Of a stretch of DNA of 64,000 bases, positions 1-53,696 are shown piece by piece. Origin of the DNA: Candidatus Collierbacteria bacterium (lineage in GTDB: Bacteria > Patescibacteriota > Microgenomatia > UBA1400 > JACPES01); assembly GCA_016219325.1 (NCBI GenBank), contig JACRNH010000003.1, positions 45,123 through 109,122 of the forward strand, read 5' to 3'. Below the pieces are notes generated by a model, which worked only from the letters and a program-made list of their open reading frames with translations, was not told the DNA's origin and did not search any database. How positions within the stretch are numbered: position 1 is the first letter of the stretch; every line of letters begins with the position of its first letter. A program made the translations under genes and the position numbers.

Positions 1-923
1 GGGAGCAATCGATTCCGGGCGGATTATATCTTTTTAGATTCCTCGGCTATTTATGGGTGATTGTTAATGCCGAAAAACTATTGGCTCCGGTTAAAAAATT
101 TATAATCCCGGCTTTTTGGATCTTTGTAATTTTGGCTTGGGCCCAGTATTTGCTTTTGCCGGACATCAGATTTTTGCTTAAATTCGGATGGGACGAGCAT
201 TATTACCGGATGATCGGAACGGTTTTGGATCCGAATTATTTGGGGGTGATGCTGGGAATTATGGGAATATATTTAATATACAAATATGCAAATAGACAAA
301 TAGACAAATGGGAGAAAATCCTATTGGCATTGTCTTTTGGCGGATTGGCGCTGACTTATTCTAGGGCGAGTTGGGTGGCTACGGTGGTTGTTAGTTGTTG
401 GTTGTTGGTTGTTAGTAGGGGGCATAGAAATAAATTAGGGAAATTGGGGATATTAGGGATATTAGGGATAATTGGAATAATGGGAATATGGCTGGCGGCG
501 CCAAAGCCCGGTGGGGAAGGAATTAATTTATTGAGAACAAGTTCGATTGAGCAGAGAGTCGAGAGTTGGAGGGAAGGAATAAATGTTTGGCGGGAACATC
601 CGTGGTTGGGAGTGGGGTTTAATAATTACGGGGGAAAAGTACAAGAAAGTACAATAAAGTACAAAAATGTACAAGAAGGAAAAAATCATAGTGAAAACGC
701 TCCGAGCAGCAGTTGGATTTTACTTTTGGCAACGGTGGGGACAATTGGGATAGGGGGATTAGGGGTAATAGGGGGGATAAGGGGGATAGGGGAGATGAAG
801 AAAAATAAATTGTGGATGGGAATTTTGATGATGGTTGGGGTTCACGCGATTTTTAACAACACCATTTTTTATCCGCCGATTTTGGGATTGTTGGCTTTGA
901 TTAAGGCTGCCAGCGAAGAATGA
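1..923 (+). CDS. O-antigen ligase (Wzy_C)-like polytopic membrane protein, 5' partial. The reading frame is open to the window start and the ORF track starts at GTG 57.
   Basis: Hydrophobic polytopic sequence with a YSRASW motif typical of the Wzy_C/O-antigen ligase domain. It also carries in-frame low-complexity inserts (GILGILGIIGIMGI, KVQESTIKYKNVQEGK, GTIGIGGLGVIGGIRGIG). Confidence 0.55.
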   Translation, partial: EQSIPGGLYLFRFLGYLWVIVNAEKLLAPVKKFIIPAFWIFVILAWAQYLLLPDIRFLLKFGWDEHYYRMIGTVLDPNYLGVMLGIMGIYLIYKYANRQIDKWEKILLALSFGGLALTYSRASWVATVVVSCWLLVVSRGHRNKLGKLGILGILGIIGIMGIWLAAPKPGGEGINLLRTSSIEQRVESWREGINVWREHPWLGVGFNNYGGKVQESTIKYKNVQEGKNHSENAPSSSWILLLATVGTIGIGGLGVIGGIRGIGEMKKNKLWMGILMMVGVHAIFNNTIFYPPILGLLALIKAASEE

Positions 924-1830: not shown

Positions 1831-3066
1831 ATGGGTTATTCCAACCACCGGAGATTAATTTGCGGATTGTCAGTTGATATTTTTATTTCATTTTTATTCT
1901 TCAACTCTTTGATTTTTAAAATGTTGTTTAATCTGCCCCGGATTTTTGGCGTCTATCGGCCTACCAAAGTTTTGGTTTTACTGCAAAACAACAATGAATT
2001 GCGCCCCACCGGCGGATTTATGGGATCTTATACCACTTTTACTTTTGATAAATTCAGAATCAAAAATTTTCAAACTTACGATATTTATGATGCCGACGGT
2101 CATGTTCCTAACTACGTTACCCCGCCCGAAGCCATCCAAACGGCCTTCCAACTCGGTTCATGGAGGCTAAGAGACGCTAATTGGGATCCGGATTTTCCCC
2201 AGTCGGCCAAAACAATTCTTTGGTTTTTGGAACAAGCCGGCATTGAATCTCAAGATATCTTAGTTGCCGTCAATCTATCGGCTATCCAAACTATTTTTAA
2301 GATGTTGCCGCATGATCTTTATCTTAGTGATTATGATCTTAATATTTCGGCAAATACTTTGTGGGATATTACCCAACAACATTCCCAATTCGGTTTTTTC
2401 CCTGGATCCAAGCAGAAAAAAGAGTTTATTTATGATTTGTCCAAAGAATTGGTTAATGAATTCACTAAATTATCTATAGTCAATAAAGTTAAATTAGTAA
2501 CTACTTTAAGCGGTTTATTTAAAGATAAGGACGTTCAGCTTTATTCCGTTAATTTCGAAATACAGAATATCTTTTCTGATTTGAGATGGGACGGAAGTCT
2601 AAAAAAATCCCTCTGCCCAAGGTTAATACCTTTTTGCACTCCGGCGAGGATTGAAATTGTTGAGGCAAATCTTGCATCTAATAAATCCAACTGTTGTGTT
2701 ATCAGAAAAGTAAAATTGGAAGTGGATAAGGGCGGCCAAGCTATAAATCATAGGTTGAAGGTTACTTTTTTCAATCAGGACAATGACCAAAACAAAAAGT
2801 GGGGCGGGAGATATTTGGCTAATGTCAGGTTATTCATTAATGATGAAGTGATGGAGGAATGGATAAACATTTTCCCCGGCGCTGAACAAACCGCTGATTT
2901 TGAATATCGGTTGACTCCTGCTAACAAATATTTTTCCCCGATTTTTGTTACTTTTCAAAAACAATCAGGCATTCACAGCTTTCCGCTGACAATTGAGGTG
3001 TTAAGCAGGGGCAAAATCGAAACAACGAGCAAAATAATTTTCCGCGACACTTGGTTTTGGTTGTAA
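1831..3066 (+). CDS. DUF4012 domain membrane protein
   Basis: N-terminal TM segment followed by the motif QNNNELRPTGGFMGSY that is diagnostic of DUF4012. The ORF-track start at 1780 overlaps the tRNA, so ATG 1831 (or 1921) is more likely. Confidence 0.65.
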   Translation: MGYSNHRRLICGLSVDIFISFLFFNSLIFKMLFNLPRIFGVYRPTKVLVLLQNNNELRPTGGFMGSYTTFTFDKFRIKNFQTYDIYDADGHVPNYVTPPEAIQTAFQLGSWRLRDANWDPDFPQSAKTILWFLEQAGIESQDILVAVNLSAIQTIFKMLPHDLYLSDYDLNISANTLWDITQQHSQFGFFPGSKQKKEFIYDLSKELVNEFTKLSIVNKVKLVTTLSGLFKDKDVQLYSVNFEIQNIFSDLRWDGSLKKSLCPRLIPFCTPARIEIVEANLASNKSNCCVIRKVKLEVDKGGQAINHRLKVTFFNQDNDQNKKWGGRYLANVRLFINDEVMEEWINIFPGAEQTADFEYRLTPANKYFSPIFVTFQKQSGIHSFPLTIEVLSRGKIETTSKIIFRDTWFWL

Positions 3067-3083
3067 TATAATCTTACAAGCTC

Positions 3084-3154
3084 GCGGGTGTGGTTCAATG
3101 GCAGAATGCGTCCTTCCCAAGGATGAGACGGGAGTCCGATTCTCCTCACCCGCT
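3084..3154 (+). tRNA. tRNA-Gly (anticodon CCC)
   Basis: GCGGGTGTGGTTCAATGGCAGAATGCGTCCTTCCCAAGGATGAGACGGGAGTCCGATTCTCCTCACCCGCT gives a cloverleaf with a TT-CCC-AA anticodon loop. Confidence 0.85.
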
Positions 3155-3215
3155 CATAAAGTGACAGAAATGTGCAGAAAGTTACATTAACTAGCATAAA
3201 AGATATCAAATAACT

Positions 3216-3521
3216 ATGGAAAGATTAGCGCCATTAGCTCGTACAAAAAAAGATTTTATGGGCACACCTCCAGATATGCCCGACAATTTACCTCATATTG
3301 ATATTTTTAGCGACGAAGAGCTAAGTGATTACTTTACGAAACGGCTTTTTGTTCAAGGTGAAATTGGACTAAACGGTGAGAGATTTCCCAGTATAACCCA
3401 AGAAAATCTTAAAGGTATTAGGGACAGAACTATTGCCTCTCTGAGGTTTGATGTTGAATACGCACAGTTAAGAGGAAGACCGGTGCCTATTGATGTTTTG
3501 AGATATTTCGAAAATTCCTAA
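3216..3521 (+). CDS. hypothetical protein
   Basis: A 101-aa ORF with no recognizable motif, lying between tRNA-Gly and the MNT/HEPN pair. Confidence 0.3.
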   Translation: MERLAPLARTKKDFMGTPPDMPDNLPHIDIFSDEELSDYFTKRLFVQGEIGLNGERFPSITQENLKGIRDRTIASLRFDVEYAQLRGRPVPIDVLRYFENS

Positions 3522-3718: not shown

Positions 3719-4009
3719 GTGATCGATTCTAAAACAACATCTATGATTAAAGATATCGTGCGGAAACATTTGCCAAGTACTGAATATAAAGCATTTCTGT
3801 TTGGATCTAGGGTTGCCGGTAATCATCGCAAATTCAGCGATGTAGATTTGGGCATTTTAGGCAATAAACCAATTCCTTCAGATGTTTTTTTCAATCTTCA
3901 ACAAGACTTGGAAGATTCTGATATTCCCTATATCGTGGAACTGCTAGATTTTTCCAGTGTGGCCGAAAGCTTTAAATCTAAAGCATTAACGAATACAATA
4001 CCTTTATGA
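3719..4009 (+). CDS. Minimal nucleotidyltransferase (MNT), antitoxin-type
   Basis: The GS...D.D signature (FGSRVAGNHRKFSDVDLG) of pol-beta-like nucleotidyltransferases. It overlaps the downstream HEPN gene by 4 nt (ATGA). Confidence 0.8.
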   Translation: MIDSKTTSMIKDIVRKHLPSTEYKAFLFGSRVAGNHRKFSDVDLGILGNKPIPSDVFFNLQQDLEDSDIPYIVELLDFSSVAESFKSKALTNTIPL

Positions 4010-4386
4010 CATATACTGACCGGTTAGTAGAATTGAAAACCGCGTTATCCCGTTTGGAAGAGGCGCTGAAAGAAGTAAAGAATCAATTGGATAAAGACGG
4101 CGCCATTCAACGTTTTGAATTTGTATTCGAGTTGACATGGAAAACACTAAAAGATTTTGCCGAAGATAAAGGCAGAATGGAAGCCAATAGCCCAAAAGGA
4201 GCCTTTCGTGTCGCGGCTGATTTAGGAGTAATTGGTGATCCTCAACCCTGGTTTGAATTTCTTAAAAGCCGTAATGACTCATCACATCTGTATAACGAGG
4301 AATCTGCGAATAGAGTATTTTCACAATTGCCCGATTTCGTATCGGCGATGAAAGATTTAATTGTCAGTCTTGATAAAATAAAATAA
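4006..4386 (+). CDS. HEPN-domain (HI0074-like) nucleotidyltransferase-associated toxin component
   Basis: Alpha-helical protein of about 126 aa with the R-x4-H HEPN motif (SRNDSSHLY), translationally coupled to the MNT gene. Confidence 0.75.
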   Translation: MTYTDRLVELKTALSRLEEALKEVKNQLDKDGAIQRFEFVFELTWKTLKDFAEDKGRMEANSPKGAFRVAADLGVIGDPQPWFEFLKSRNDSSHLYNEESANRVFSQLPDFVSAMKDLIVSLDKIK

Positions 4387-5236: not shown

Positions 5237-7036
5237 ATGGTTATGCAGGAGATTTCTAACAATCAAACAATCGCTCAAATGCTATTTGAGGTAGCCGCGG
5301 TTTTAGAAGTAACCGGAGGAGACAGGTTTAGAATCCGGGCATATCAAGAGGCTGCTAAATCCATCGAAAGTTATCCGGCAGAGATCCGCGATTTATGGGA
5401 ACATGGGAATTTGGGAGACGTTTCCAGCGTCGGCAAAGCCATTTCCGGTTATTTGGATGAATTTTTTAAAACAGGCAGAATAAAACATTTTGAGCCGATC
5501 ATAAAAAGAGTTCCTGCAGGAATGTTCCCTTTGCTAAATGTTAGCGGAATCGGTCCCAAGACAGCTTTTGCGCTTTCCAAAGAATTGGGACTGGTAAAGT
5601 CCAAGATGGCAGTTGCAAAACTTAAGAAGGCTGCTTTGGACGGTAAAATAGCCAAAATTGAGGGATTTGGGGAAGACTCGCAGGCCAAGATCTTGTCAGC
5701 AATCAAAGAATCCGAGTCCAGAGAAGACAAAATGCTTTTGCCTGTAGCTCGGGAACTGGCCGATAAAGTAATTGATTATCTAAAGAAGCAACCCGATGTT
5801 GTAAAAATTGAGGTATTAGGCAGCTTAAGAAGACAAATGGCTCTGGTCGGAGATATTGATATAGGAGTTGCCGCTTCAAATCCAAAGGAAATTACAGACT
5901 GGTTTATTAAATTCCCTGAATTCATAAAAATATTGGTGAGCGGGGACAAAGTTTGCCGGGCGGTTCACCGTACCGGAAGGCAAGTTGACTTAAAAATTGA
6001 GCCGGTTGAAAGTTTTGGTTCAATGCTGCAGCATTTTACCGGCAGTAAGGAGCATAATATCGCTTTGAGAGAATTGGCCCTGAAGAAAGGGTTGTCGTTG
6101 TCGGAGCATGGGATAAAGATAATGAGTAATGAGAAGAAAGTAATGAGCAATGATAAACAACTAGTAAATTTCAAAACGGAAGAGGAATTCTATAAAGCTC
6201 TTGGGATGGAGTGGATTCCGCCGGAGCTGCGGGAAAACAGGGGGGAGATTGAGGCTAGTAAAGAAGGTAAGTTGCCAGAACTGATAGGGTTATCAGATAT
6301 TAAAGGTGATTTTCATATCCATTCCGACTTTGACATTGAAACCAGTCATGATCTGGGGGTTTCGGGTTTAATTTATTTGACAAAAGAAGCTGAAAAAATG
6401 GGATACGAATTTATCGCCATATCTGATCACAATCCGTCTACTTCCCGGCATAATAATAAGCAAATAATTGACCTTATAAAGCGAAGAAATGAATATATTG
6501 ATAAATTTTTATCCTCGCGTGTGAACGTTGTGAAAATTAAATTATTTAAATCCCTCGAAATAGATATATCCGGCGATGGATCAATCGCTATTCCGGACGC
6601 GGCATTGGAACTTTTGGATTTTGTCATTGTCTCAATTCACAGTCAGTTTGTTGGTGACGAGAGCAAGCAAACGGCCAGAATTTTAAAAGCGCTTTCCCAT
6701 CCTAAAGTAAAAATTCTGGGCCATCCGACCGGTAGACAGCTGTTAAACCGGAACGGAATCAATTGCGATTGGGATCAGATATTTGATTATTGCGCCAAAA
6801 AGAATATTTGGCTGGAGGTGAATGGTAATCCGCATAGAATGGATTTGCCGGATCAGTTAATTCAGAAAGCTAAAGGTTTCGGAGTGAAATTTACAATTGG
6901 GACGGATAGTCATGCTTTTTCTCAAATGGAATACATGCCATCTGGCGTTTCTTTGGCTAGAAGGGGTTGGCTTGAGAAGAAAGATGTGATAAATTGTTTA
7001 GGATATAATGAAGTGAAGAAAGAATTTAATCCTTAA
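5237..7036 (+). CDS. polX: PolX-family DNA polymerase (Pol beta-like core plus C-terminal PHP domain)
   Basis: N-terminal HhH/pol-beta region and a C-terminal PHP motif (FHIHSDFD). The ORF-track start at 5168 overlaps tRNA-Asp, so ATG 5237 is used. It carries an in-frame AGTAATGAG-family repeat insert at 6120-6160 (KIMSNEKKVMSNDKQ). Confidence 0.8.
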   Translation: MVMQEISNNQTIAQMLFEVAAVLEVTGGDRFRIRAYQEAAKSIESYPAEIRDLWEHGNLGDVSSVGKAISGYLDEFFKTGRIKHFEPIIKRVPAGMFPLLNVSGIGPKTAFALSKELGLVKSKMAVAKLKKAALDGKIAKIEGFGEDSQAKILSAIKESESREDKMLLPVARELADKVIDYLKKQPDVVKIEVLGSLRRQMALVGDIDIGVAASNPKEITDWFIKFPEFIKILVSGDKVCRAVHRTGRQVDLKIEPVESFGSMLQHFTGSKEHNIALRELALKKGLSLSEHGIKIMSNEKKVMSNDKQLVNFKTEEEFYKALGMEWIPPELRENRGEIEASKEGKLPELIGLSDIKGDFHIHSDFDIETSHDLGVSGLIYLTKEAEKMGYEFIAISDHNPSTSRHNNKQIIDLIKRRNEYIDKFLSSRVNVVKIKLFKSLEIDISGDGSIAIPDAALELLDFVIVSIHSQFVGDESKQTARILKALSHPKVKILGHPTGRQLLNRNGINCDWDQIFDYCAKKNIWLEVNGNPHRMDLPDQLIQKAKGFGVKFTIGTDSHAFSQMEYMPSGVSLARRGWLEKKDVINCLGYNEVKKEFNP

Positions 7037-10961: not shown

Positions 10962-12554
10962 ATGGGATTTAAGATTTCTCCGCAAGAAATTCAACACGTG
11001 GCGCAACTCGCCAATCTTCAGATTTCCGATAAAGAATTAAAACTTTATACCAAGCAAATTCAGGATATTTTAGGATATGTTGAGCAACTCGATAAGGTTA
11101 AAGTTGAAGGAGTTGAGCCGACCTACCAGACTTTGGACGGGACAACTAACGTTTGGCGGGAGGACGAAGTCAAGGAAAGCTTGAGTCAGGAAGAAGCAGT
11201 GGGGCAGGCCGAAAAAACAATGGATGGGTATTTTATTACCGACAGCGTGTTTGGCAAAGGCAAAAGTACAATCCGCCAGCTGACGGAGTACAAGAAGGTG
11301 CAAGAAAGTACAAAAAGGGAAATTGATGGGTTGAATGTTGTTCTGACGGAGGTGGATGTAAAGGGAAATATAGGTCTCAAGGATTTATTTTTGACTAAAG
11401 GGATAAGAAGTACGGCAGGATCAAACGTTTTGCGGGAATATACCCCGCAATATTCTTCAAGTGTAATTAAATTGTTAGAAAAGGCCGGATTTGCCACAAA
11501 ATATAAATTGAATTGCGATGCTTGGGCTCATGGCTCAAGCGGTGAAAATTCTGATTTTGGGCCGGTCAAAAACCCTTGGAATCTCGAATTTACTCCGGGA
11601 GGATCATCAAGCGGATCGGCCGCGGCTGTGGCTGCCGGGTTAGTGGATTTTGCTACCGGGACGGATACAGGAGGGTCAATCAGATTGCCGGCGAGTTTTT
11701 GCGGAGTAGTCGGATTAAAGCCGACTTACGGCGCGGTCAGCCGGTACGGGATTGTGGCGATGGCGTCAAGTTTGGATTCTCCCGGGATTATTGGGAGGAC
11801 TGTGGAAGAGGTGGAGAAGGTGTTTGGGGTGATGGTTGGGGAGGATAGACGAGACGCTACATCAAAAAGAGAAGGAAAAAGAGGGATAAGAAGGATCAGA
11901 AGGACAGAGGAGATAAAAATCGGGATACCGGAAGAATTTTTTGCCGAGGGATTAGATTCGTCGGTAAAAAAAGCGGTAAATGGAGCGATAGAAGAATTAT
12001 CAAAAGCCGGACTGGAAATTAAGCGATTATCACTCCCGCACCTTAAATATGCCTTAGCTGTTTATTACTTGATTGCGACTACCGAAACCGCCAGTAACTT
12101 GGGCAGGTATGACGGGATAAGATACGGACAAGACAGATCATTTTTTGGCGCCGAAGCTAAGCGGCGGATTATGCTAGGGACGTTCGCGTCATCGGCCGGA
12201 TATTCAGCCAAGTTTTTTGAAAAAGCGGCTCGGGTAAGGACTTTAATAATTAAAGATTTCAATGATGCGTTTAAAGATGTTGATGTTTTGATCGGGCCGG
12301 TGTCGCCGACCCCGCCCTTTAAATTGGGGGAAAAGGCCAATGATCCATTGCAAATGTATTTATCGGATATTTTGACGGTGCCGGTAAACTTGGCGGGGCT
12401 GCCGGGGCTGGCGCTGCCGTGCGGGTTCACTAAAAATAATCTGCCAATCGGGATGCAGTTGATTGGGCCAAGGTGGTCAGAAAATTTACTTTTTGACATT
12501 GGTGAGAAGTACCAAGGTTTAACTAATTGGCATAAGGAGCGACCAAGAGTCTAA
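10962..12554 (+). CDS. gatCA: Glu/Asp-tRNA amidotransferase GatC-GatA fusion protein
   Basis: The N-terminal ~95 aa matches GatC (ISPQEIQHVAQLANLQISDKEL...VEPTYQ). The rest is the amidase-signature GatA (GGSSSGSAAAVAAG...GTDTGGSIRLPASFCGVVGLKPTYG). The ORF is continuous in this sequence. Confidence 0.8.
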   Translation: MGFKISPQEIQHVAQLANLQISDKELKLYTKQIQDILGYVEQLDKVKVEGVEPTYQTLDGTTNVWREDEVKESLSQEEAVGQAEKTMDGYFITDSVFGKGKSTIRQLTEYKKVQESTKREIDGLNVVLTEVDVKGNIGLKDLFLTKGIRSTAGSNVLREYTPQYSSSVIKLLEKAGFATKYKLNCDAWAHGSSGENSDFGPVKNPWNLEFTPGGSSSGSAAAVAAGLVDFATGTDTGGSIRLPASFCGVVGLKPTYGAVSRYGIVAMASSLDSPGIIGRTVEEVEKVFGVMVGEDRRDATSKREGKRGIRRIRRTEEIKIGIPEEFFAEGLDSSVKKAVNGAIEELSKAGLEIKRLSLPHLKYALAVYYLIATTETASNLGRYDGIRYGQDRSFFGAEAKRRIMLGTFASSAGYSAKFFEKAARVRTLIIKDFNDAFKDVDVLIGPVSPTPPFKLGEKANDPLQMYLSDILTVPVNLAGLPGLALPCGFTKNNLPIGMQLIGPRWSENLLFDIGEKYQGLTNWHKERPRV

Positions 12555-12559
12555 CCTAG

Positions 12560-12650
12560 TGATTTATGAATTAAGATTTATGATTTATGAATAATAACGG
12601 TCTGATTCTTATATATATAGAATTCATAATTCGTAAATCTTAAATCATTG
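12560..12650. repeat. Imperfect hairpin (GATTTATGAAT-family tandem units in inverted orientation) spanning the gatCA-gatB junction
   Basis: Left arm TGATTTATGAATTAAGATTTATGATTTATGAAT and right arm GAATTCATAATTCGTAAATCTTAAATCA are near reverse complements. Confidence 0.7.
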
Positions 12651-12656
12651 CTTAAA

Positions 12657-14024
12657 ATGAAAATCAAATTAATTCCCATAATTGGCCTTGAAGTTCACGT
12701 GGAATTGAAGACGAATTCCAAAATGTTCTGCGGATGTAAAAACGATCCGTTTGGGGCTTCAAAACCGAATATTTACACCTGTCCGGTGTGTTTGGGTTTG
12801 CCGGGAGCCCTGCCGGTGCCGAATAAGAAAGCGATTGAATTAACCGTAAAATTAGGCTTAGGTTTGGGTTGTGAAATAAATCGAGAATCCCGGTTTGACC
12901 GGAAACATTATTTTTATCCGGATCTGCCGAAAGGCTATCAGATCAGCCAATATGAGAAACCGTTCGCGTCTGGCGGTGAGCTGAAATTCAGAATTCAGAA
13001 TTCAGAATTCAGAATTATAAGAGTTAGAAGGGTGCATTTGGAAGAGGATACGGGGAAATTGCTGCACCGGAAAATAGACGGTGAAGAAGTTTCTTTGATT
13101 GATTTTAACCGTTCCGGCGTGCCATTGGCGGAAATTGTGACCGAACCGGATATCAGGTCGGCGCAGGAAGCAAAAGAGACGGCTAAAAAAATTTATCAGA
13201 TTGTTAGGGCCTTGGGCGTGTCTGATGCGGATATGGAGAAGGGAAGCATGAGGTTGGAAGCGAATATCTCTCTCTCCGAGATAAAGGAAAAAGGAAAAAG
13301 GAAAAAGGAAAAAGGGGAACTTCCGGACTATAAGGTGGAGATCAAGAATATTAATTCTTTTAGATTTATGGAAAGGGCGATAAATGCGGAAATTGAGAGA
13401 CAGGAAAAAATTCTTGAGTCCGGTAAAAAAGTGCAACAGCAAACTTTTGGTTGGGATACGGAAAAACAGGAGTTGAAACCGCAAAGGGTGAAAGAAGAAG
13501 CCGCGGATTATCGGTATTTTCCGGAACCGGATATACCGCCAATCGTTTTGTCAGACGATTGGATATTAAAGATCAAAGATCAAATATCAAAATTGCCGGA
13601 AGAAATATATGAAGGATTGATTAGAACTGGAATTGCGGCAGCGGCGGCGAAGGTGATTGTGGGAGATAGGGAGTTAGCGGAGAAAATTAATGGGATAATT
13701 AGGGAAATTAAGGAGATTGGAGATATTAGGGATATTGGAAACTGGGCGTTGCATCATCAGGAGATGATTAAGGAAAAACCGGTGGATGAATTAATTTCTT
13801 TATTTAAGCAAGGGAGAGAAGGGTTAGTTTCAGATTCCGGCCAACTTAAACGATGGGTTAAGGAAGTTGTTGAAGACAATGTTCAAGCGGTGAATGATTA
13901 TAGAAAAGGCAAAGAAGCGGCATTAATGTTTTTGGTTGGACAGGCGCAAAGATTGGCTAAAGGGAAAGCTGATGTTAGTTTGGTTAAAGATATGTTAAGC
14001 TCAAAATTATCAAGTGATTTATGA
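12657..14024 (+). CDS. gatB: Glu/Asp-tRNA amidotransferase subunit B
   Basis: N-terminal IGLEVHVEL...CPVCLGLPGALP GatB signature. ATG 12657 is preferred over the ORF-track TTG at 12648. It has in-frame micro-repeats at 12986-13017 ((CAGAATT)4), 13283-13316 (AAGGAAAAAGG x3) and 13691-13740. Confidence 0.85.
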   Translation: MKIKLIPIIGLEVHVELKTNSKMFCGCKNDPFGASKPNIYTCPVCLGLPGALPVPNKKAIELTVKLGLGLGCEINRESRFDRKHYFYPDLPKGYQISQYEKPFASGGELKFRIQNSEFRIIRVRRVHLEEDTGKLLHRKIDGEEVSLIDFNRSGVPLAEIVTEPDIRSAQEAKETAKKIYQIVRALGVSDADMEKGSMRLEANISLSEIKEKGKRKKEKGELPDYKVEIKNINSFRFMERAINAEIERQEKILESGKKVQQQTFGWDTEKQELKPQRVKEEAADYRYFPEPDIPPIVLSDDWILKIKDQISKLPEEIYEGLIRTGIAAAAAKVIVGDRELAEKINGIIREIKEIGDIRDIGNWALHHQEMIKEKPVDELISLFKQGREGLVSDSGQLKRWVKEVVEDNVQAVNDYRKGKEAALMFLVGQAQRLAKGKADVSLVKDMLSSKLSSDL

Positions 14025-14117
14025 AGTATGATTTATGATTTACGAATAATATTAATTTAGTTTTCATAGATTTTCTGATTCATAATTCATAAATCGTAAT
14101 TCTTAATTCATGAATCA
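14017..14117. repeat. Imperfect hairpin of the same GATTTATGAAT family spanning the gatB stop and the dnaE start
   Basis: GATTTATGAAGTATGATTTATGATTTACGAAT ... GATTCATAATTCATAAATCGTAATTC form an inverted repeat. Confidence 0.7.
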
Positions 14118-17590: not shown

Positions 17591-19276
17591 GTGCGTCAAG
17601 TAAAATATATTTTTATTTCGGGCGGAGTCCTTTCCGGTTTAGGCAAAGGCATTACTTCAGCCTCAATTGGTTTTTTGCTTAAGGCCCACGGTTATAAAGT
17701 TACTCCGGTTAAATGCGAGAACTATTTAAATATTGATTCCGGTTTAATTAATCCCATAGAACACGGCGACCCATTTTTGTGCGAAGACGGAACAGAATCT
17801 GATATGGATTTGGGAACTTATGAAAGGTTTTTAAACCAGAATATGGGGATCGAGAATTTTGTCACTATGGGGCAGATTTACCGCCAAGTGATTGAAAATG
17901 AACGGAATTATAAATATAAAGGCGAAGATGTTGAGGCAATTCCTCACGTGGTGAATGAAATAATTAGGCGGATTAAATCAGCCGGAGAAAAGTCGGAGGC
18001 GGATATAATTTTGGTGGAATTAGGCGGAACTACAGGAGAATATCAGAATGTTTTGTACTACGAAGCTGCCAGGGAAATGAAGCTTGAGGCATTGCGGAAT
18101 GACGATGTTCATAGGGTTGTCCATATTCACGTCAGTTACTTGCCAATTCCAAAACATTTAGGCGAACCGAAGACCAAGCCGACACAGCTTTCAATCCGGA
18201 CTTTGATGGGAATGGGAATTCAGCCGGATTTTTTGGTTGCCCGTTGTGAGAAAGAAATTGATGCCAGAAGGAAATACTTATTGTCATTAACCTGTAATTT
18301 GAGAGACGAAAATATTGTTTCAGGTCCGGATATGGATTCGATTTATCAGGTGCCGTTGGTTTATAAAAAACAGGATTTTGACACCAGAATTCTTAAGGCG
18401 TTGGGCCTTAAGCCCGGAAAAGCAGATTTAAACGATTGGAATAAGCTGGCAAAGTCAATTTCTGAACCTAAAAAATATCAACTGGAGATCGCCATAGTCG
18501 GAAAATATTTCCGGACAGGCAAAGAATTTATGCTGGCCGATTCATATGCTGCTCTGTTTGAGGCCTTAAAACATGCAGCATGGAAACAAGGTTTTGAGCT
18601 AAAACTTAAATGGGTTAGCGCGGAGGAGGTTGAAGAAAACGGGGTTAATGGATTGCTCTCCGGGGTTGACGGGATTGTGGTTCCTATTGGATGGGGAAAG
18701 CGAGGGGCGGAAGGAAAAATATCAGCCATAAATTATGCCAGAATAAATAAAATTCCGTTTTTGGGTTTGTGTTATGGGATGCAATTGGCTTGCATTGAAT
18801 TTGCCCGGAATGTGGCAGGGCTTAAGGAAGCCAATACCACCGAAAACGATCCGGAGACTTCTAATCCTATAATTCATGACATTCCGGAAAAAGCGGAATT
18901 AATGACAATTAAGAGCCGGGGAGTTGCGATGCGGTTGGGAGGATGGGATTTTAAGGTTAAGGAAAAAACTCTTTTGGATAATATTTATAAAAAATATAAT
19001 CTTTATAAAGATTATAAAAATAGGGTCGGATCCGTCAGACATCGTCATCGATTTGAGTTTAATAATCAGTATATTGATCTTCTGAAAAGTAAAGGTTTAA
19101 CGTTATCGGCAATGTCAGTTAAGGGAAATTTTGTGGATTGGATTGAGCTTCCAATAACAGTTCATCCATTTTTTATCGGAACCCAAGGCCATCCGGAATA
19201 TTCTTCCCGGCCTTTAAAACCGCATCCGGTATTTTTAGAATTCCTTAAAGCCTGCTATAATAATCGGGAACATTAG
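17591..19276 (+). CDS. pyrG: CTP synthase
   Basis: N-terminal synthetase motif (YIFISGGVLSGLGKGITSASIG) and a C-terminal class-I glutamine amidotransferase with the catalytic Cys (GLCYGMQ). Confidence 0.9.
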   Translation: MRQVKYIFISGGVLSGLGKGITSASIGFLLKAHGYKVTPVKCENYLNIDSGLINPIEHGDPFLCEDGTESDMDLGTYERFLNQNMGIENFVTMGQIYRQVIENERNYKYKGEDVEAIPHVVNEIIRRIKSAGEKSEADIILVELGGTTGEYQNVLYYEAAREMKLEALRNDDVHRVVHIHVSYLPIPKHLGEPKTKPTQLSIRTLMGMGIQPDFLVARCEKEIDARRKYLLSLTCNLRDENIVSGPDMDSIYQVPLVYKKQDFDTRILKALGLKPGKADLNDWNKLAKSISEPKKYQLEIAIVGKYFRTGKEFMLADSYAALFEALKHAAWKQGFELKLKWVSAEEVEENGVNGLLSGVDGIVVPIGWGKRGAEGKISAINYARINKIPFLGLCYGMQLACIEFARNVAGLKEANTTENDPETSNPIIHDIPEKAELMTIKSRGVAMRLGGWDFKVKEKTLLDNIYKKYNLYKDYKNRVGSVRHRHRFEFNNQYIDLLKSKGLTLSAMSVKGNFVDWIELPITVHPFFIGTQGHPEYSSRPLKPHPVFLEFLKACYNNREH

Positions 19277-30852: not shown

Positions 30853-31260
30853 ATGTTACTCCATCTCTCTCTTGCTACTCCTCTTAAGAAAGTTTTAGAG
30901 ATTGACGAAGTTGAAATCGTTAATGCTCCGGCGGAAATGGGTGACGTTGGAATTTTGCCGAATCATGCTCCGTTTATGTCCAGACTTAAAGACGGGGTGA
31001 TAAATTACCGGATCGGGGGAAATAATTTTTATGTCGGAGTTAACGGAGCCTTTATGGATGTAGCCGAAAATCAGGTGACTATAATTTCTGAAGCCGCAAT
31101 TTTGCCGGAGGACGCTGATTTAAAAAGAGCTCAAGAAGCAAGGGATAGGGCGAAGGCTGAATTGGAAAAAAGACTGGAAGGAACAGATTTTAAGATGGTG
31201 GAAGCGGAGTTGAGAAAAGCGCTTTTAGAGATGAAATTATTGGAGCACGTTAAAAAATGA
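30853..31260 (+). CDS. atpC: F0F1 ATP synthase subunit epsilon
   Basis: Size, position and a beta-sandwich plus helical-hairpin pattern consistent with the epsilon subunit. Confidence 0.75.
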   Translation: MLLHLSLATPLKKVLEIDEVEIVNAPAEMGDVGILPNHAPFMSRLKDGVINYRIGGNNFYVGVNGAFMDVAENQVTIISEAAILPEDADLKRAQEARDRAKAELEKRLEGTDFKMVEAELRKALLEMKLLEHVKK

Positions 31261-31337
31261 GTAATGAGTAGAAAGTAATGAGTAATGAATAAAATAACAT
31301 TATTTTCTACTTTCTATTTTCTACTCATTATTTTTTT
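31259..31337. terminator. AGTAATGAG/TAGAAAGTA-family inverted-repeat hairpin followed by a T7 tract (a likely intrinsic terminator after atpC)
   Basis: GAGTAATGAGTAGAAAGTAATGAGTAATGAAT ... ATTATTTTCTACTTTCTATTTTCTACTCATTA then TTTTTTT immediately before the ruvC ATG. Confidence 0.6.
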
Positions 31338-31826
31338 ATGATTATCTTAGGCATTGACCCCGGATTTGCCAGAATGGGATGGGGAGTAATCAGCAAAAAC
31401 GGCGCAAAATTTTCACTGGTAGCTTACGGATGTCTGGAGACTTCTGCCGATGTCGGTTTGCCAGACAGGTTGGAAATGATATTTGACGGGATTCTCAAAG
31501 TAATAAAGAAGTACAAGCCGGATTTGGTCGGCATAGAAACTCTTTTTTTTAACACTAACGCCAAAACCGCGGTCAAGGTAGGGGAGGCGAGGGGAGCGAT
31601 ATTGGTGGCGCTGAAAAAAGCCGGAATTAAATCAGCGGATCTGACTCCTCTTCAAGTGAAACAAGCTGTAGCTGGTTACGGCCGGGCGGAAAAATCTCAA
31701 GTCCAAAAAATGGTTAAGACCTTGTTAAATCTAAAAGAAATCCCCCATCCTGACGACGCCGCCGACGCTTTAGCCATCGCCCTCGCTGCTGGATCAATTG
31801 TAAAGTATCAGATACTTTACAACTAA
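31338..31826 (+). CDS. ruvC: Holliday junction resolvase RuvC. Its last 8 codons are supplied by a palindromic repeat.
   Basis: N-terminal ILGIDPGFARMGWGVI with the catalytic Asp, and C-terminal DDAADALAIAL. The terminal IVKYQILYN is encoded by the 25-bp palindrome at 31798-31822. Confidence 0.85.
   Translation: MIILGIDPGFARMGWGVISKNGAKFSLVAYGCLETSADVGLPDRLEMIFDGILKVIKKYKPDLVGIETLFFNTNAKTAVKVGEARGAILVALKKAGIKSADLTPLQVKQAVAGYGRAEKSQVQKMVKTLLNLKEIPHPDDAADALAIALAAGSIVKYQILYN
31798..31822. repeat. Palindrome copy 1 (TTGTAAAGTATC A GATACTTTACAA), forming the 3' codons of ruvC
   Basis: Perfect 12-bp arms with a 1-nt spacer. Confidence 0.9.
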
Positions 31827-31846
31827 TATTTGCAAATATAGTTCGT

Positions 31847-32575
31847 TTAATCTTCAGCATCAATCGCAACTGGACGAAGAAGCGTTGAATCTGAATTAGA
31901 AAATTGAGCCTCAACAAATTCGCGGTATTCAGTAGGTCTGTTTCTGAATAATCCAATAACAAACTTTGGCTTTGAAATAGAGAAAGGGGTTTTAGTCGGG
32001 AAGAGATAGTAGTCGTTAATATTGCTCCATTGCCAATTTTCCGGTTTGTTAACCAGTCCGGCCATGGTAGGGTTAATATGGATATATCTGGATACATGCA
32101 TGACTCGTTCGTCCGTATCTAGTTCTTTGATCTTAAACCTTCCCTGAAATAGCGGCCCAACTCGTTGATTATCGTGATTAAATTTATGAGCGTATGTTAT
32201 TCCAATCCGTTTCATGAATTCCGAGATTGGAGACTGTAAAGTATCTGATACTTTACAGATGCGAATAAGGAAATGGAAATGGTTTGGCATTAAACAATAA
32301 GCCAGAAGTTCGATAATGTTTTTGAACATACCGTTGCCTTTAGGATCAGCTGTAAACGAAACAGGCTTATTTTTCATTCTCCAGCGCATCGAAAATGGCG
32401 ATTGATGCTGTAAGGTATCAGATACTTTACAGTCAGGGAAGCCAATTAAAAAATAACGCAGAATTTCGCGGAAGTCAAAGTAGTCAGACTCCCTTTTGAA
32501 TATTTTCCGCCTATTTACCCCGCGGTTATAGACATGATAAATTCCGTTTTCGTGATAATCAGGCCTAATATACAT
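31847..32575 (-). CDS. tnpA: IS200/IS605-family Y1 (HUH) transposase / REP-associated tyrosine transposase-like protein
   Basis: YHVYNRGVNRRKIF N-terminal motif, HUH motif (MPNHFHFLI) and the catalytic Tyr region (RYIHINP). The ORF-track start at 32836 is a stop-free upstream extension, so ATG 32575 is used. Confidence 0.75.
   Translation of the reverse strand: MYIRPDYHENGIYHVYNRGVNRRKIFKRESDYFDFREILRYFLIGFPDCKVSDTLQHQSPFSMRWRMKNKPVSFTADPKGNGMFKNIIELLAYCLMPNHFHFLIRICKVSDTLQSPISEFMKRIGITYAHKFNHDNQRVGPLFQGRFKIKELDTDERVMHVSRYIHINPTMAGLVNKPENWQWSNINDYYLFPTKTPFSISKPKFVIGLFRNRPTEYREFVEAQFSNSDSTLLRPVAIDAED
32234..32258. repeat. Palindrome copy 2 (CTGTAAAGTATC T GATACTTTACAG), in-frame inside tnpA and encoding CKVSDTLQ
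   Basis: Perfect 12-bp arms. Confidence 0.9.
32408..32432. repeat. Palindrome copy 3 (CTGTAAGGTATC A GATACTTTACAG), in-frame inside tnpA and encoding CKVSDTLQ
   Basis: 12-bp arms with 1 mismatch. Confidence 0.9.
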
Positions 32576-32586
32576 ATGTGGATAAG

Positions 32587-32609
32587 TGTAAAGTATCAGA
32601 TACTTTACA
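32587..32609. repeat. Palindrome copy 4 (TGTAAAGTATC A GATACTTTACA), 12 nt upstream of the tnpA ATG
   Basis: Perfect 11-bp arms. Confidence 0.9.
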
Positions 32610-32696
32610 AGAAGACAAGATGCGAGAACGTCTATCGGTTGGATAGAACTATCGGGTGAGTAGAATAAAGCGACCAGAATAATAATTTTACGAAAT

Positions 32697-33113
32697 GTGG
32701 TATATTTGCTACATATGTCAGTAGACGAGTTACGGATAAGTTTAGCCGATGTCCTTGGGTCTAAGAAATGTAGCCAGGACCAGTGGATGATCGCACCGCA
32801 TCTTACAAAGTCCGGAAAAGACCTTAGAATTGCCACGTCTGTAAAAAATCATTTTGATAAGCTGCACCGAGAACAGCCTTTTAGAAGTTCGACATCAGCC
32901 CTTCGCGATGACCTTCGGCAATTAACGCTTACTGAAACAAACGTAATTTTAGATTCATTTGAATCTCTTAAGCCTGAAGAGTCTCAGAATCAATTATTAT
33001 ATCCAGCTTTCAGAGAAGTCATAATCGCCGCTCATGAGGCAGACGTAGTTGATAAACATCGACTATTGGGAAAATTTGCCGTTTCGCTTCTTCGATTGGT
33101 AGATAGCGAATAA
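32697..33113 (+). CDS. hypothetical protein between the IS element and ruvA
   Basis: A 138-aa ORF with no recognizable motifs. Confidence 0.3.
   Translation: MVYLLHMSVDELRISLADVLGSKKCSQDQWMIAPHLTKSGKDLRIATSVKNHFDKLHREQPFRSSTSALRDDLRQLTLTETNVILDSFESLKPEESQNQLLYPAFREVIIAAHEADVVDKHRLLGKFAVSLLRLVDSE

Positions 33114-35783: not shown

Positions 35784-35787
<4 letters not shown>
34828..35787 (+). CDS. Secreted glycoside hydrolase, clan GH-A-like
   Basis: Signal peptide, then the catalytic-pair motifs typical of (beta/alpha)8 clan GH-A enzymes: NEP (AFNEPNH) and ITETGW. Confidence 0.55.
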
Positions 35788-36202
<415 letters not shown>

Positions 36203-52169: not shown

Positions 52170-52194
52170 ATTCATTAACGCATTAACGCATTAT
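52149..52194. repeat. Imperfect inverted repeat of TAATGGAT/TAACGCAT units spanning the oxidoreductase alpha stop and beta start
   Basis: TAATGGATTAATGGATTCATGAA | TTCATTAACGCATTAACGCATTA. Confidence 0.6.
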
Positions 52195-53066: not shown

Positions 53067-53696
53067 TTAATTAACCACAGGGTGGAATTTGCGGATAACG
53101 CCCACAACTTTTCCCTGAACTCTGACGCGGGTGGCGAAAATCGGCTGCATCTGGGAGTTTGCCGGTTCCAGCCTGATTCTGGTGGCTTCGCGGAAAAATC
53201 TTTTTAAGGTGGCCAATCCATTGTCTAAAAGGGCAACGACTATGTCTCCGTTATGAACCTCATCCTGTTCTTCAACGACTACATAATCTCCGTCAAGAAT
53301 TCCATCGTCAATCATTGATTGGCCTTTGACTTTTAAAACGTAAGCCCGGCGTTTTCCGGATAACATGTCAGGCGAAATGGATAGCGTAGTATGAGGATCT
53401 GCAAACGGGACAATCGGCGATCCGGCAGCGATAAATCCCATTACAGGCAATTCTACTCCGGTTGAAGTTTTGGAAATCTTGCGGTCGATTAATTCGATTC
53501 CGCGGACGGTGCCTTCATACTTTTTAATAATTCCTTTTCTGATTAAAGCTTCTAAATGTTCGTGGACTGTGGCTAAAGAAGTGACTCCCAATGCTATGGC
53601 AATTTCCTGTAAAGTAGGGGAATATCCGTGCTGCTGGATATATTGTGATAAAAATTCTACAATTTGTCTTTGGCGTCTGTAAAGTGTTACTGGCAT
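53067..53696 (-). CDS. lexA: LexA repressor
   Basis: N-terminal winged HTH and a C-terminal S24 peptidase (GDYVVVEEQDEVHNGDIVVALLDN, with catalytic Ser/Lys). It is divergent from uvrB. Confidence 0.85.
   Translation of the reverse strand: MPVTLYRRQRQIVEFLSQYIQQHGYSPTLQEIAIALGVTSLATVHEHLEALIRKGIIKKYEGTVRGIELIDRKISKTSTGVELPVMGFIAAGSPIVPFADPHTTLSISPDMLSGKRRAYVLKVKGQSMIDDGILDGDYVVVEEQDEVHNGDIVVALLDNGLATLKRFFREATRIRLEPANSQMQPIFATRVRVQGKVVGVIRKFHPVVN

What the first reader, a model, noticed from the sequence alone, without database searches (positions are those of the whole stretch)
636..680. The GTACAAGAA-unit micro-repeat is inserted in frame in both the Wzy-like gene and gatCA (11287-11315)
The Wzy-like gene carries AAGTACAAGAAAGTACAATAAAGTACAAAAATGTACAAGAAGG, encoding KVQESTIKYKNVQEG. 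GatA carries GTACAAGAAGGTGCAAGAAAGTACAAAAAGG, encoding YKKVQESTKR, inside its conserved core. Both give the same peptide flavour (KVQEST) from the same DNA units. This is a second independent pair of genes sharing one insert family.
Basis: seen in the sequence. Interest (0 to 1): 0.7.

Follow-up and report, generated by a model that had tools for sequence, protein, structure and literature searches.

The report
Dispersed tandem-array repeats written into genes
The same ~40-base block, made of four 10-base units, sits in frame in three unrelated genes of this Candidatus Collierbacteria genome and in many genes of related genomes, as one family of short dispersed repeats that overwrite tolerant loops, linkers and signal peptides of otherwise conserved proteins.

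Summary
GTACAARAAR tandem arrays lie in frame in the Wzy-like gene (636-677) and in gatCA (11288-11318, plus an orphan unit at 11266-11272). A third, inverted copy at 58833-58874 forms the signal-peptide core of a transglutaminase-like protein. A double-unit pattern hits 8 times against 0.05 expected.

The gatCA copy is not in the GatA core. It lies in the hypervariable GatC-GatA linker. It is also not a plain insertion: in all three genes the array replaces a tolerant segment, with only about 4-7 residues of net gain.

The window (Candidatus Collierbacteria) holds 41 short arrays of period 7-10, against about 3 expected. Unit families are shared between unrelated loci and between genomes. Between genes they form inverted pairs, giving ~105-nt hairpins. 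One 37-nt hairpin arm recurs in the PolX ORF with its stop codons removed.

Read in sense, the 10-mer gives KVQESTRKYK-type loops. Read in antisense, it gives FLVLSCTFLY-type N-terminal hydrophobic cores. The main unit variants have no stop codon in any of the six frames.

Best reading: copies of a lineage-specific dispersed repeat (like cyanobacterial STRRs and Rickettsia RPEs) that persist only at permissive sites. How they are copied is inferred, not shown.

The parts
636..677 (+). Array A: four units of GTACAARAAR in the Wzy_C (O-antigen ligase family) ORF. Encodes KVQESTIKYKNVQEG in the loop between GVGFNNY and H..NAPSSSW.
3..923 (+). Host gene 1: Wzy_C / O-antigen ligase family ORF, cut by the window start. 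It carries at least five different arrays (275-309, 385-416, 432-489, 636-677, 747-796).
11266..11272 (+). Orphan first unit (GTACAAT) of the gatCA array. It is contiguous with the other units in the relative L024.
11273..11287 (+). 15-nt interruption CCGCCAGCTGACGGA, part of the near-palindrome TCCGCCAGCTGACGGA nested inside the array. Absent in L024.
11288..11318 (+). Array B: three units (GTACAAGAAG GTGCAAGAAA GTACAAAAAG) in the GatC-GatA linker. Encodes EYKKVQESTKR.
10962..12554 (+). Host gene 2: gatC-gatA fusion (GatC residues 21-91, Amidase residues 137-510). A second array site lies at 11870-11904 (AGAAGGATA x3.8, REGKRGIRRIRR).
58833..58874 (-). Array C: four units in inverse orientation. 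Read from the + strand it encodes FFVLSFTFLYLFVP, the hydrophobic core of the signal peptide of the transglutaminase-like protein.
58808..60676 (+). Host gene 3: transglutaminase-core protein of 622 aa. All relatives have an N-terminal signal peptide of similar length.
6120..6156 (+). Same class, different family: the PolX loop array is a copy of the 37-nt hairpin arm at 31255-31292, with its in-frame stop codons removed.
31252..31337 (.). Intergenic hairpin whose arms are AATGAGT/AGAAAGT arrays. A second copy lies at 44710-44804.
44710..44804 (.). Second copy of the AATGAGT/AGAAAGT array-armed hairpin.
12566..12648 (.). Intergenic hairpin with TGATTTA-array arms between gatCA and gatB.
14015..14110 (.). 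Second TGATTTA-family hairpin, between gatB and dnaE.
13692..13736 (+). GGGATATTA-family array in gatB (GIIREIKEIGDIRDI). The same family occurs in the Wzy-like gene at 432-489. At this gatB site L001 has the GTACAAKAAA array instead.
12985..13016 (+). Perfect AATTCAG x4.6 array in gatB. It replaces, at exactly equal length, the AGGTTAC x3.9 array found in L024 and L001.

Best explanation
The two arrays, and the third in the transglutaminase-like gene, are single-arm copies of one family (GTACAARAAR, about four units, about 40 nt). This family belongs to a lineage-specific class of short dispersed tandem-array repeats in Collierbacteria-type CPR genomes.

Shown: (1) The genome is saturated with arrays of period 7-10 and total length 25-60 nt. 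(2) Unit families, including the internal order of unit variants, recur at non-homologous loci within and between genomes. (3) Between genes the arrays pair up in inverted orientation as ~105-nt hairpins. (4) Inside ORFs they sit only at permissive places: flexible loops and linkers when the purine-rich strand is the sense strand, and N-terminal signal or membrane segments when the pyrimidine-rich strand is the sense strand. (5) Because 10 is not a multiple of 3, three units encode the same decapeptide (KVQESTRKYK, circularly permuted) in any frame. The main unit variants have no stop codon in any of the six frames, so an arm is readable in any frame and either orientation. (6) Relative to orthologs, the arrays replace resident sequence with a small net length change that preserves the frame. 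After that they change by gain or loss of units and by nested inserts.

Inferred: whole arms are copied to new sites by a non-homologous route guided by microhomology. This would be template switching, or integration of ectopic single-stranded or hairpin-derived fragments at replication forks (SPDIR-like short-patch replacement). A cut-and-paste transposase seems less likely. Selection then keeps only in-frame, stop-free copies of near-native length. The intergenic hairpins are the likely reservoir of copies.
For: Enrichment: 41 arrays (TRF score 40 or more) against about 2.8 in third-order Markov simulations. Density is 0.41 per kb in the window, 0.46 in L001 and 0.78 in L024, against 0-0.09 in 20 of 21 control loci from other phyla.

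Family sharing: 8 hits against 0.05 expected. The string GTACAAGAAAGTACAATAAAGTACAA is identical in the window's Wzy-like gene and in L001's gatB. Arrays of this unit occur at about 40 non-redundant sites on CPR-like contigs. Pfam or motif reading places them in GatCA, GatB, Wzy, ComEC, CobA, GT4, PMT-type transferases and PGK. With this family excluded, 40 exact unit-sharing pairs are seen against 10.3 +/- 2.4 expected.

Copying of whole arms: PolX 6120-6156 equals the arm at 31255-31292 except for two substitutions and one 1-nt deletion. The TAG-to-AAG change and the deletion remove the two stops the arm would have in PolX's frame; the other change is synonymous.

Replacement rather than insertion: GatCA, Wzy, the signal peptide, an equal-length swap in gatB, and three different cassettes of 20-23 aa in the PolX loop. 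None shows the +40 nt a simple insertion would give, and 40 is not a multiple of 3. No target-site duplications are visible at hairpin termini.

Permissive sites: pLDDT is below 50 at both GatCA array sites.

Orientation rule: 14 sense copies have mean hydropathy -1.95 and median relative position 0.69; 8 antisense copies have +1.99 and 0.035.

Six-frame openness.

Hairpins: dG -22 to -44 kcal/mol, with window analogues.

Later evolution: 0, about 2 or 4 units among Wzy orthologs and a 15-nt nested palindrome in gatCA.

SPDIR is an established mechanism (bioRxiv 10.1101/2023.11.22.568220).
Against: The copying route is not demonstrated. No filled/empty pair at more than 95% identity was found. 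Contig pairs at 99.9-100% identity show no array differences. No donor was found for the AATTCAG array or for the 15-nt interruption.

The two-unit state in L150 could be a local seed that grew by slippage rather than a decayed copy. About 26% of random 10-mers are also open in all six frames, so that property is permissive rather than diagnostic.

A RAYT-like HUH transposase is encoded in the window, so an enzyme-driven route cannot be excluded.

Only L001 and L023/L024/L089 are shown to be relatives of the window's genome. No data show that the segments are translated or are neutral.
Confidence: 0.6

Rival explanations
1. Enzyme-driven mobile element. The array-armed hairpins would be MITE/REPIN-like non-autonomous elements moved as single-stranded hairpins by a Y1 HUH transposase (RAYT / IS200-like). 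The copies in ORFs would be half-elements left after insertion and partial deletion.
For: A RAYT-like gene lies at 31847-32575(-), with an HUH motif and a catalytic tyrosine motif. Homologs are widespread in CPR. Inverted pairs with a conserved loop occur in several copies per contig. IS200/IS605-type insertion leaves no target-site duplication (my own knowledge). A complete 128-nt palindrome sits in frame in uvrB.
Against: The RAYT is flanked and interrupted by its own 23-nt palindrome, which is unrelated to any array and confined to its neighbourhood. Its L112 homolog has the same layout with yet another palindrome. At least ten array families with periods 7-10 would need many specificities. 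Copies replace resident sequence instead of adding about 40 or 105 nt. The NCBIfam score of 61 is below the curated cutoff of 80.
Confidence: 0.15
2. Independent local replication slippage. Each array would have arisen in place from a local seed, and the resemblance between loci would be convergence driven by A-rich composition.
For: Slippage is the standard origin of short tandem repeats. Unit number varies among Wzy orthologs, and L150 has a possible two-unit seed. Arrays are purine/A-rich on the sense strand. Many arrays are unique to one locus.
Against: The double-unit pattern hits 8 times against 0.05 expected. Identical 26-nt strings with the same variant order occur in different genes of genomes only 69% identical in GatCA. 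A 37-nt composite arm is shared by PolX and two hairpins. Unit sharing is four times the null expectation. Single steps of +/-7 or +/-10 nt would frameshift housekeeping genes such as gatB, which is probably essential, yet a perfect 7-mer x4.6 array replaced another at equal length.
Confidence: 0.08
3. Functional motif kept by selection or molecular drive. The arrays would be binding sites (iteron-like, phased at one helical turn), DNA-uptake signals, or RNA hairpin signals such as terminators or stabilisers. The copies in genes would be by-products.
For: The family is conserved across diverged genomes, with about four units and a recurrent GAAGGAA end. Inverted pairs lie between genes, as with uptake sequences and REPs. 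CPR genomes encode DNA-uptake machinery (ComEC, DprA; PMC7143001). All five intergenic hairpins in the window fold 4-8 kcal/mol better on the transcribed strand.
Against: Single units are not over-represented. Density is only 3 per 64 kb. Many unrelated families behave the same way. At orthologous sites the families are interchangeable. The strand asymmetry of folding is reversed in L116 and L001. No canonical terminator is found at the gatB hairpins and there is no Rfam match.
Confidence: 0.1
4. Assembly or sequencing artefact of a metagenome-assembled genome.
For: The source is a MAG, and repeats are prone to misassembly.
Against: The same arrays at the same sites appear in independent assemblies from NCBI, ENA and JGI (L023, L024, L089). 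ORFs stay open through every array. Independently predicted proteins contain them.
Confidence: 0.01

Closest known systems
STRR (short tandemly repeated repetitive) sequences of heterocyst-forming cyanobacteria
   Same: Both are tandem repeats of about 7 bp in several sequence families dispersed round the genome. They can form hairpins between genes and have no known function (PMC2670836). They also occur inside a functional gene, the RNase P RNA gene (Vioque 1997, title cited in PMC2858038).
   Different: The phylum differs (CPR). Here about 70% of the arrays lie inside protein-coding ORFs and are read in frame. Units are 7-10 nt, and the same array is used in both orientations for different peptide types. 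No sequence relationship was tested.
Rickettsia palindromic elements (RPEs): selfish repeats inserted in frame in protein-coding genes
   Same: A dispersed repeat family is found in frame in unrelated conserved genes at positions that tolerate extra peptide, and also in intergenic DNA. The ~95-nt double-hairpin element in L024 gatB and L001 gatCA, and the 128-nt palindrome in uvrB, are close analogues.
   Different: RPEs are ~100-150 bp palindromes added as insertions (my own knowledge of Ogata et al. 2000; reviewed in PMC10969869). The finding's copies are 30-42-nt direct-repeat arms that replace resident sequence.
REP / REPIN elements with RAYT transposases
   Same: Both form inverted doublets giving ~100-nt hairpins between genes, in several families per genome. 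A RAYT-like gene is present in the window (PMC3116915).
   Different: REPs are imperfect palindromes, almost exclusively extragenic, and cluster by their cognate RAYT. Here the arms are tandem direct repeats, many lie in genes, and the RAYT's own flanking palindrome is a different sequence.
Tandem repeats of Borg elements (aaTRs)
   Same: Both are pervasive, fast-evolving, A-rich tandem repeats in genes and between them, and both create low-complexity or disordered protein segments (PMC9879509).
   Different: Borg repeats in ORFs all have unit lengths divisible by three and are reported to arise independently. Here only about a quarter of the coding arrays have periods divisible by three, and families are shared between loci.
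[quoted passage not shown]
   Same: These replace a short patch with an ectopic sequence, with no target-site duplication and a variable net length (10.1101/2023.11.22.568220). That matches the replacement pattern seen here.
   Different: SPDIR is a rare laboratory-detected mutation class in Acinetobacter. It is not known to build genome-wide repeat families. Its involvement here is inference only.

Membership tests
Cyanobacterial STRR-type dispersed tandem repeats | Short (about 7 bp) units repeated in tandem a few times | tested here: met
   Periods are 7-10 with 3-8 copies: 41 arrays against about 2.8 expected.
Cyanobacterial STRR-type dispersed tandem repeats | Several unit families, each present at many unrelated loci | tested here: met
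   (40 exact unit-sharing pairs against 10.3 +/- 2.4).
Cyanobacterial STRR-type dispersed tandem repeats | Intergenic copies able to form hairpins | tested here: met
Cyanobacterial STRR-type dispersed tandem repeats | Occurrence in heterocystous cyanobacteria, with the STRR consensus heptamers | tested here: not met
   The host is Candidatus Collierbacteria. The units seen here were not compared with published STRR consensus sequences, so identity of units is untested.
Rickettsia palindromic elements | Dispersed repeat present in frame within conserved protein-coding genes | tested here: met
Rickettsia palindromic elements | Element is a ~100-150 bp palindrome | tested here: not met
   The coding copies of the 10-mer family are single arms of 30-42 nt made of direct repeats. 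Only the intergenic pairs are palindromic.
Rickettsia palindromic elements | Net insertion relative to orthologs | tested here: not met
   Resident sequence is replaced, with about 4-7 residues of net gain or none.
REP/REPIN-RAYT system | The repeat unit is an imperfect palindrome | tested here: not met
   The arms are tandem direct repeats. Only the GTAC core is self-complementary.
REP/REPIN-RAYT system | Inverted doublets forming a long hairpin | tested here: met
   for related contigs. None of the three window copies of the 10-mer family has a partner arm.
REP/REPIN-RAYT system | The cognate repeat flanks a single-copy RAYT gene | tested here: not met
   The RAYT-like gene is flanked by a different 23-nt palindrome. 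The same is true in L112.
REP/REPIN-RAYT system | Predominantly extragenic | tested here: not met
   About 70% of the window's arrays are inside ORFs.
MITE | Terminal inverted repeats plus target-site duplication | tested here: inconclusive
   The arms act as inverted repeats, but no duplication is visible at seven element termini. No empty site at high identity is available.
Borg-type coding tandem repeats (aaTRs) | Unit length divisible by three inside ORFs | tested here: not met
   Most coding arrays have period 7, 8 or 10 (PMC9879509).
DNA uptake sequences (USS/DUS) | A single short motif strongly over-represented genome-wide | tested here: not met
   The 9-mer with up to 1 mismatch gives 17 hits against 12.2 expected, and all the excess is within arrays.
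Phase-variable contingency repeats | Unit-number changes that switch a gene on and off, with polymorphism in populations | tested here: not met
   The hosts are housekeeping genes. ORFs are open in all assemblies, and there is no copy-number difference in near-identical contigs.

The most novel reading that the evidence does not exclude
Collierbacteria-type CPR bacteria may have a high-rate, lineage-specific 'cassette-writing' process. Short single-stranded or hairpin-derived copies of a shared pool of tandem-array sequences would repeatedly overwrite permissive 30-60-nt patches in essential genes and intergenic hairpins. The sequences in that pool have evolved to be readable in any frame and either orientation. 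The process would supply ready-made hydrophilic linkers and, in antisense, ready-made signal-peptide cores. It would be a natural system of protein-segment turnover that is neither transposition nor ordinary slippage.
Probability: 0.2. Interest if true: 0.8.

Novelty: new variant of a known kind. Interest (0 to 1): 0.6.

Why it matters
Small, reduced CPR genomes are usually described as poor in mobile DNA. This result suggests they can carry a dense population of very short dispersed repeats that remodel loops, linkers, membrane segments and signal peptides of core housekeeping proteins (GatCA, GatB, PolX, UvrA/B, PGK, ComEC).

The practical consequences are threefold. Alignments and phylogenies of CPR marker proteins contain non-homologous repeat-derived segments at fixed hot spots. 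Unrelated proteins share peptides such as KVQESTRKYK for DNA-level reasons. Signal peptides can apparently be supplied by the antisense strand of a repeat.

It also offers a natural data set for studying how short-patch, non-homologous sequence replacement works in bacteria with minimal repair systems. I found no description of this in the searchable literature.

Tried and rejected
- Rfam: no family matches any array or hairpin.
- Viral contigs: only 3 pattern hits. One is the viral-collection copy of contig L047, one is a giant-virus MAG, and one matches L110/L130; none was analysed further.
- The metagenome scan also returned many long, uniform minisatellites, probably eukaryotic, which I set aside.
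- RNA-level function of the hairpins: the strand asymmetry of folding is consistent in the window but reversed in L116 and L001, so the test is inconclusive. No canonical terminator lies at the gatB hairpins.
- RAYT as the mobiliser: its cognate palindrome is a different sequence and is confined to the gene's neighbourhood.
- Search for donors of the perfect AATTCAG array and of the 15-nt interruption: none in the window or loci.
- Search for recent copy-number changes in near-identical contigs: none.
- Taxon names for the array-bearing metagenomic contigs: none returned. Only L089 is demonstrably close to the window.
- Uptake-sequence idea: rejected because single units are not enriched.
- Phase variation: rejected because the hosts are housekeeping genes with open reading frames.
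Full report
**1. The observation**

Window 636-677 is a 10-nt tandem repeat (AAAGTACAAG x4.2; TRF). It lies in an ORF that runs off the window start (3-923) and matches Pfam Wzy_C / O-antigen ligase. It encodes KVQESTIKYKNVQEG. Window 11288-11318 (GTACAAGAAG x3.1) lies in a 530-aa gatC-gatA fusion (10962-12554; GatC plus Amidase domains). It encodes EYKKVQESTKR.

A pattern of two consecutive units matches 8 times against 0.05 expected. Single units outside arrays are not over-represented (17 against 12.2). The same search found a third array at 58833-58874 on the opposite strand. It starts 25 nt after the start codon of a transglutaminase-core protein (58808-60676) and encodes FFVLSFTFLYLFVP. 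The source is a Candidatus Collierbacteria MAG, since the proteins are 100% identical to NCBI entries.

**2. Where the copies sit in the proteins**

The gatCA copy is not in the conserved GatA core. The Amidase match begins at residue 137. The array (residues about 109-119) is in the linker between GatC and GatA. In an alignment of 25 fused orthologs this linker and a second site (about residues 300-320, also a tandem repeat here: 11870-11904) are the only hypervariable parts. In an AlphaFold2 model both sites have pLDDT below 50 (residues 95-121 and 299-313).

Non-Collierbacteria orthologs have a non-repetitive linker only about 4-7 residues shorter. The closest ortholog (P0002, 76% identity) has the same array at the same place, as four contiguous units (GTACAAAAAA GTACAAAAAT GTACAAGAAG TTACAAGAAA). 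The window in fact has a fourth unit too, at 11266-11272, split from the rest by a 15-nt near-palindromic insert.

In the Wzy-like protein the array fills the loop between GVGFNNY and the conserved H..NAPSSSW. Distant orthologs have an unrelated loop only 4-5 residues shorter. Among close orthologs the state varies: four units (window, L149), about two (L150), none (L148), or a deletion (P0122).

All relatives of the transglutaminase-like protein have a signal peptide of similar length, so the array occupies the hydrophobic core of a pre-existing signal peptide. In all three genes, therefore, the array replaced a tolerant segment rather than being added to a conserved one.

**3. The wider phenomenon**

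The window holds 41 short arrays with TRF score 40 or more (period mostly 7-10, 3-8 copies, 25-60 nt in total). Composition-matched simulations give about 2.8. About 70% are inside ORFs, and all of those ORFs stay open. Hosts include ClpB, GatB, PolX, CTP synthase, UvrA, UvrB and a pyruvate:ferredoxin oxidoreductase subunit. Only about a quarter of the coding arrays have a period divisible by three.

Array density is 0.41 per kb here, 0.46 and 0.78 in two Collierbacteria relatives, and 0-0.09 in 20 of 21 control loci from other phyla.

Gene-by-gene comparison with a syntenic relative (L024) shows proteins roughly 80-95% identical, apart from short islands that coincide with the arrays. At several of these islands the two genomes carry different unit families at the same position, with the same or nearly the same length:
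- gatB has AATTCAG x4.6 (perfect) in the window, against AGGTTAC x3.9 in L024 and L001.
- The PolX loop has three different cassettes of 20-23 residues in three genomes.
- The hairpins on either side of gatB belong to a different family in each genome.

**4. Families are shared, and whole arms are copied**

Besides the 10-mer, several families recur at unrelated loci of the window:
- GGGATATTA (Wzy-like gene 432-489 and gatB 13692-13736)
- TGATTTA (both flanks of gatB)
- AATGAGT/AGAAAGT (6120, 31256, 44718, 36146)
- a (S/N)NEQKTK 21-mer (51872 and uvrB 54998)

With the 10-mer excluded and duplicate contigs removed, exact unit sharing among 107 arrays from the window and related contigs is 40 pairs, against 10.3 +/- 2.4 expected from shuffled units.

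In L001 (69% GatCA identity) the 10-mer array is in gatB. It sits at the very site where the window has the GGGATATTA array, and it shares the 26-nt string GTACAAGAAAGTACAATAAAGTACAA with the window's Wzy-like copy.

A scan of public metagenomes for three consecutive units returned at least 120 stretches before hitting its limit. A subset has the window's signature: about four units, often ending GTACAAGAAGGAA, on contigs of 39-45% GC that are rich in other arrays. That subset places the array at about 40 non-redundant sites. Hosts there include ComEC, a corrinoid adenosyltransferase, GT4 and PMT-type glycosyltransferases and phosphoglycerate kinase.

The clearest evidence for copying comes from another family. 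The PolX array (6120-6156) matches the 37-nt arm of the intergenic hairpin at 31255-31292, including the order of unit variants. It differs by two substitutions and one 1-nt deletion. The TAG-to-AAG change and the deletion remove the two stop codons the arm would have in PolX's frame; the other substitution is synonymous.

**5. Intergenic form**

On related contigs the 10-mer arrays frequently occur as a forward array, a spacer of 15-25 nt and a reverse array. These form ~105-110-nt hairpins (dG -22 to -44 kcal/mol) between genes. The loop is conserved between copies on one contig, and no target-site duplication is visible.

The window has the same architecture for other families (12566-12648, 14015-14110, 31252-31337, 44710-44804, 52120-52213), plus a 128-nt palindrome in frame in uvrB. 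A test for RNA-level selection, comparing fold stability of the two strands, was consistent in the window but not elsewhere. No canonical terminator or Rfam family matches.

**6. Coding logic**

Ten is not a multiple of three. Three units (30 nt) therefore pass through all three frames and encode one decapeptide, V-Q-E-S-T-R-K-Y-K-K, whatever the entry frame. The copies in different genes are circular permutations of this peptide. The main unit variants contain no stop codon in any of the six frames; 26% of random 10-mers of this composition share that property.

Orientation decides the use:
- 14 sense copies in ORFs of 200 aa or more are hydrophilic (mean Kyte-Doolittle -1.95) and internal (median relative position 0.69).
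- 8 antisense copies are hydrophobic (+1.99) and N-terminal (median 0.035). They typically follow a few basic residues and precede an AxA-like motif, so they form signal-peptide or membrane-anchor cores.

Independent gene predictions use the same start codons for the window protein and for L068 and L104. Three of the antisense cases (L050, L078, L119) may lie upstream of the true start.

**7. Mechanism**

Shown: dispersal of families, copying of whole arms, replacement with small in-frame net change, restriction to permissive sites, and later change by unit gain or loss and nested inserts.

Not shown: how the copies are made.

I favour a non-homologous, microhomology-guided short-patch route. 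This would be template switching, or integration of ectopic single-stranded or hairpin-derived fragments at replication forks, as described for SPDIR (bioRxiv 10.1101/2023.11.22.568220). My reasons:
- A 40-nt arm cannot be inserted in frame, yet the copies show net changes of 0 to about 27 nt together with loss of resident sequence.
- There are no target-site duplications.
- Many unrelated families behave alike.
- The same sites are overwritten by different families in sister genomes.

The main alternative is an enzyme-driven element. The window encodes a RAYT-like Y1/HUH transposase between ruvC and ruvA (Pfam Y1_Tnp; NCBIfam REP-associated tyrosine transposase at 61 bits, below the cutoff of 80). 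However, that gene is associated with its own 23-nt palindrome: four copies within 800 bp, two of them in frame inside the gene, and none elsewhere. Its homolog in L112 has the same layout with a different palindrome. The arrays are therefore not its cognate repeats.

Pure local slippage is contradicted by the shared variant order and by the frameshift cost of single-unit steps in genes such as gatB, which is probably essential. A uptake-sequence-type motif is contradicted by the lack of single-unit enrichment and by the multiplicity of families. An assembly artefact is excluded by independent assemblies.

**8. Comparison with known systems**

The nearest known kinds are these:
- Cyanobacterial STRRs. 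These are families of ~7-bp tandem repeats that form intergenic hairpins and also occur inside the RNase P RNA gene.
- Rickettsia RPEs, dispersed palindromes in frame in protein genes.
- REP/REPIN-RAYT systems.
- Borg tandem repeats, which differ in having units divisible by three in ORFs and independent origins.

The present case differs from each in at least one defining feature (see the membership table). I found no description of it for CPR bacteria. I class it as a new variant of a known kind.

**9. Limits**

- The metagenomic loci were ascertained by the pattern, and their taxonomy is unverified apart from L001 and L023/L024/L089.
- The census is truncated.
- There are no expression or population data.
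- The structure model is of moderate quality (mean pLDDT 70.9).
- The copying mechanism is inference.

Noticed in passing
window 31800-32836 (gene 31847-32575, minus strand): A RAYT-like Y1/HUH transposase lies between ruvC and ruvA. It has four copies of a 23-nt perfect palindrome, TGTAAAGTATC-W-GATACTTTACA. One is just upstream of the start, two are in frame inside the ORF (each encoding CKVSDTLQ), and one forms the last codons of ruvC. The L112 homolog (2725-3360) has the same layout with a different palindrome, GGGAAGTTTCGTAAACTTCCC.
   Followed up: partly
window 55255-55382 (in uvrB, 53777-56005): A 128-nt palindrome (RNA fold dG about -52 kcal/mol) sits in frame inside uvrB, encoding GSRSSDFGYQSSGYQFAGLKTDRLKTDKPETENRKLKTDNK. 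uvrB also carries arrays at 54474-54505 and 54998-55055, and uvrA carries arrays at 57725-57802.
   Followed up: partly
L024 9427-9560 (gatB) and L001 10274-10400 (gatCA linker): A ~95-nt GC-rich element that folds into two hairpins (dG -59.5 and -46.4) is inserted in frame in gatB of one genome and in the gatCA linker of another, with 89 of 139 aligned positions identical. It resembles a Rickettsia RPE. It has no Rfam match and is absent from the window.
   Followed up: partly
L023 3196-3255 (PolX loop); L001 about 12300 (gatB); GatCA orthologs P0003-P0007: Another in-frame family consists of paired GC-rich palindromes AAAGGCCNGGCCTT. These encode peptides such as KGQAF...KGRAL, FKGLAFEYKGQAL and KARPLTTKARPF at the same hot spots that hold tandem arrays in other genomes.
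   Followed up: no
window, whole: There is strong strand asymmetry: G 14796 against C 11658 on the + strand, and nearly all genes are on the + strand. This fits the compositional disparity and proposed unidirectional replication reported for Collierbacteria and relatives (PMC7143001).
   Followed up: no
window 10962-12554: gatC and gatA are fused into one ORF. The same fusion is found in Collierbacteria, Woesebacteria, Beckwithbacteria and other Patescibacteria orthologs. The GatA N-terminal region is much shortened compared with canonical GatA, since the Amidase profile is matched only from position 52.
   Followed up: partly
L023 versus L024 (about 2300-3400 in L023): Two contigs from different samples encode identical GatCA proteins but have a highly divergent, mosaic PolX region that includes the cassette site. 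This suggests homologous recombination between diverged strains.
   Followed up: no
window 3719-4386 and 35784-36161: There is a small nucleotidyltransferase plus substrate-binding pair (Polbeta / NTase_sub_bind, toxin-antitoxin-like) and a 'putative phage metallopeptidase' domain protein. LexA is at 53067-53696, next to uvrB, uvrA and uvrC.
   Followed up: no
window 18978-19021 (CTP synthase) and orthologs P0010, P0136, P0140: A TTATAAAAA-type array encodes DNIYKKYNLYKDYKN. Similar KDYKNYK peptides occur at three separate sites of one GatCA ortholog (P0010) and in Wzy orthologs. This points to a further shared family.
   Followed up: no
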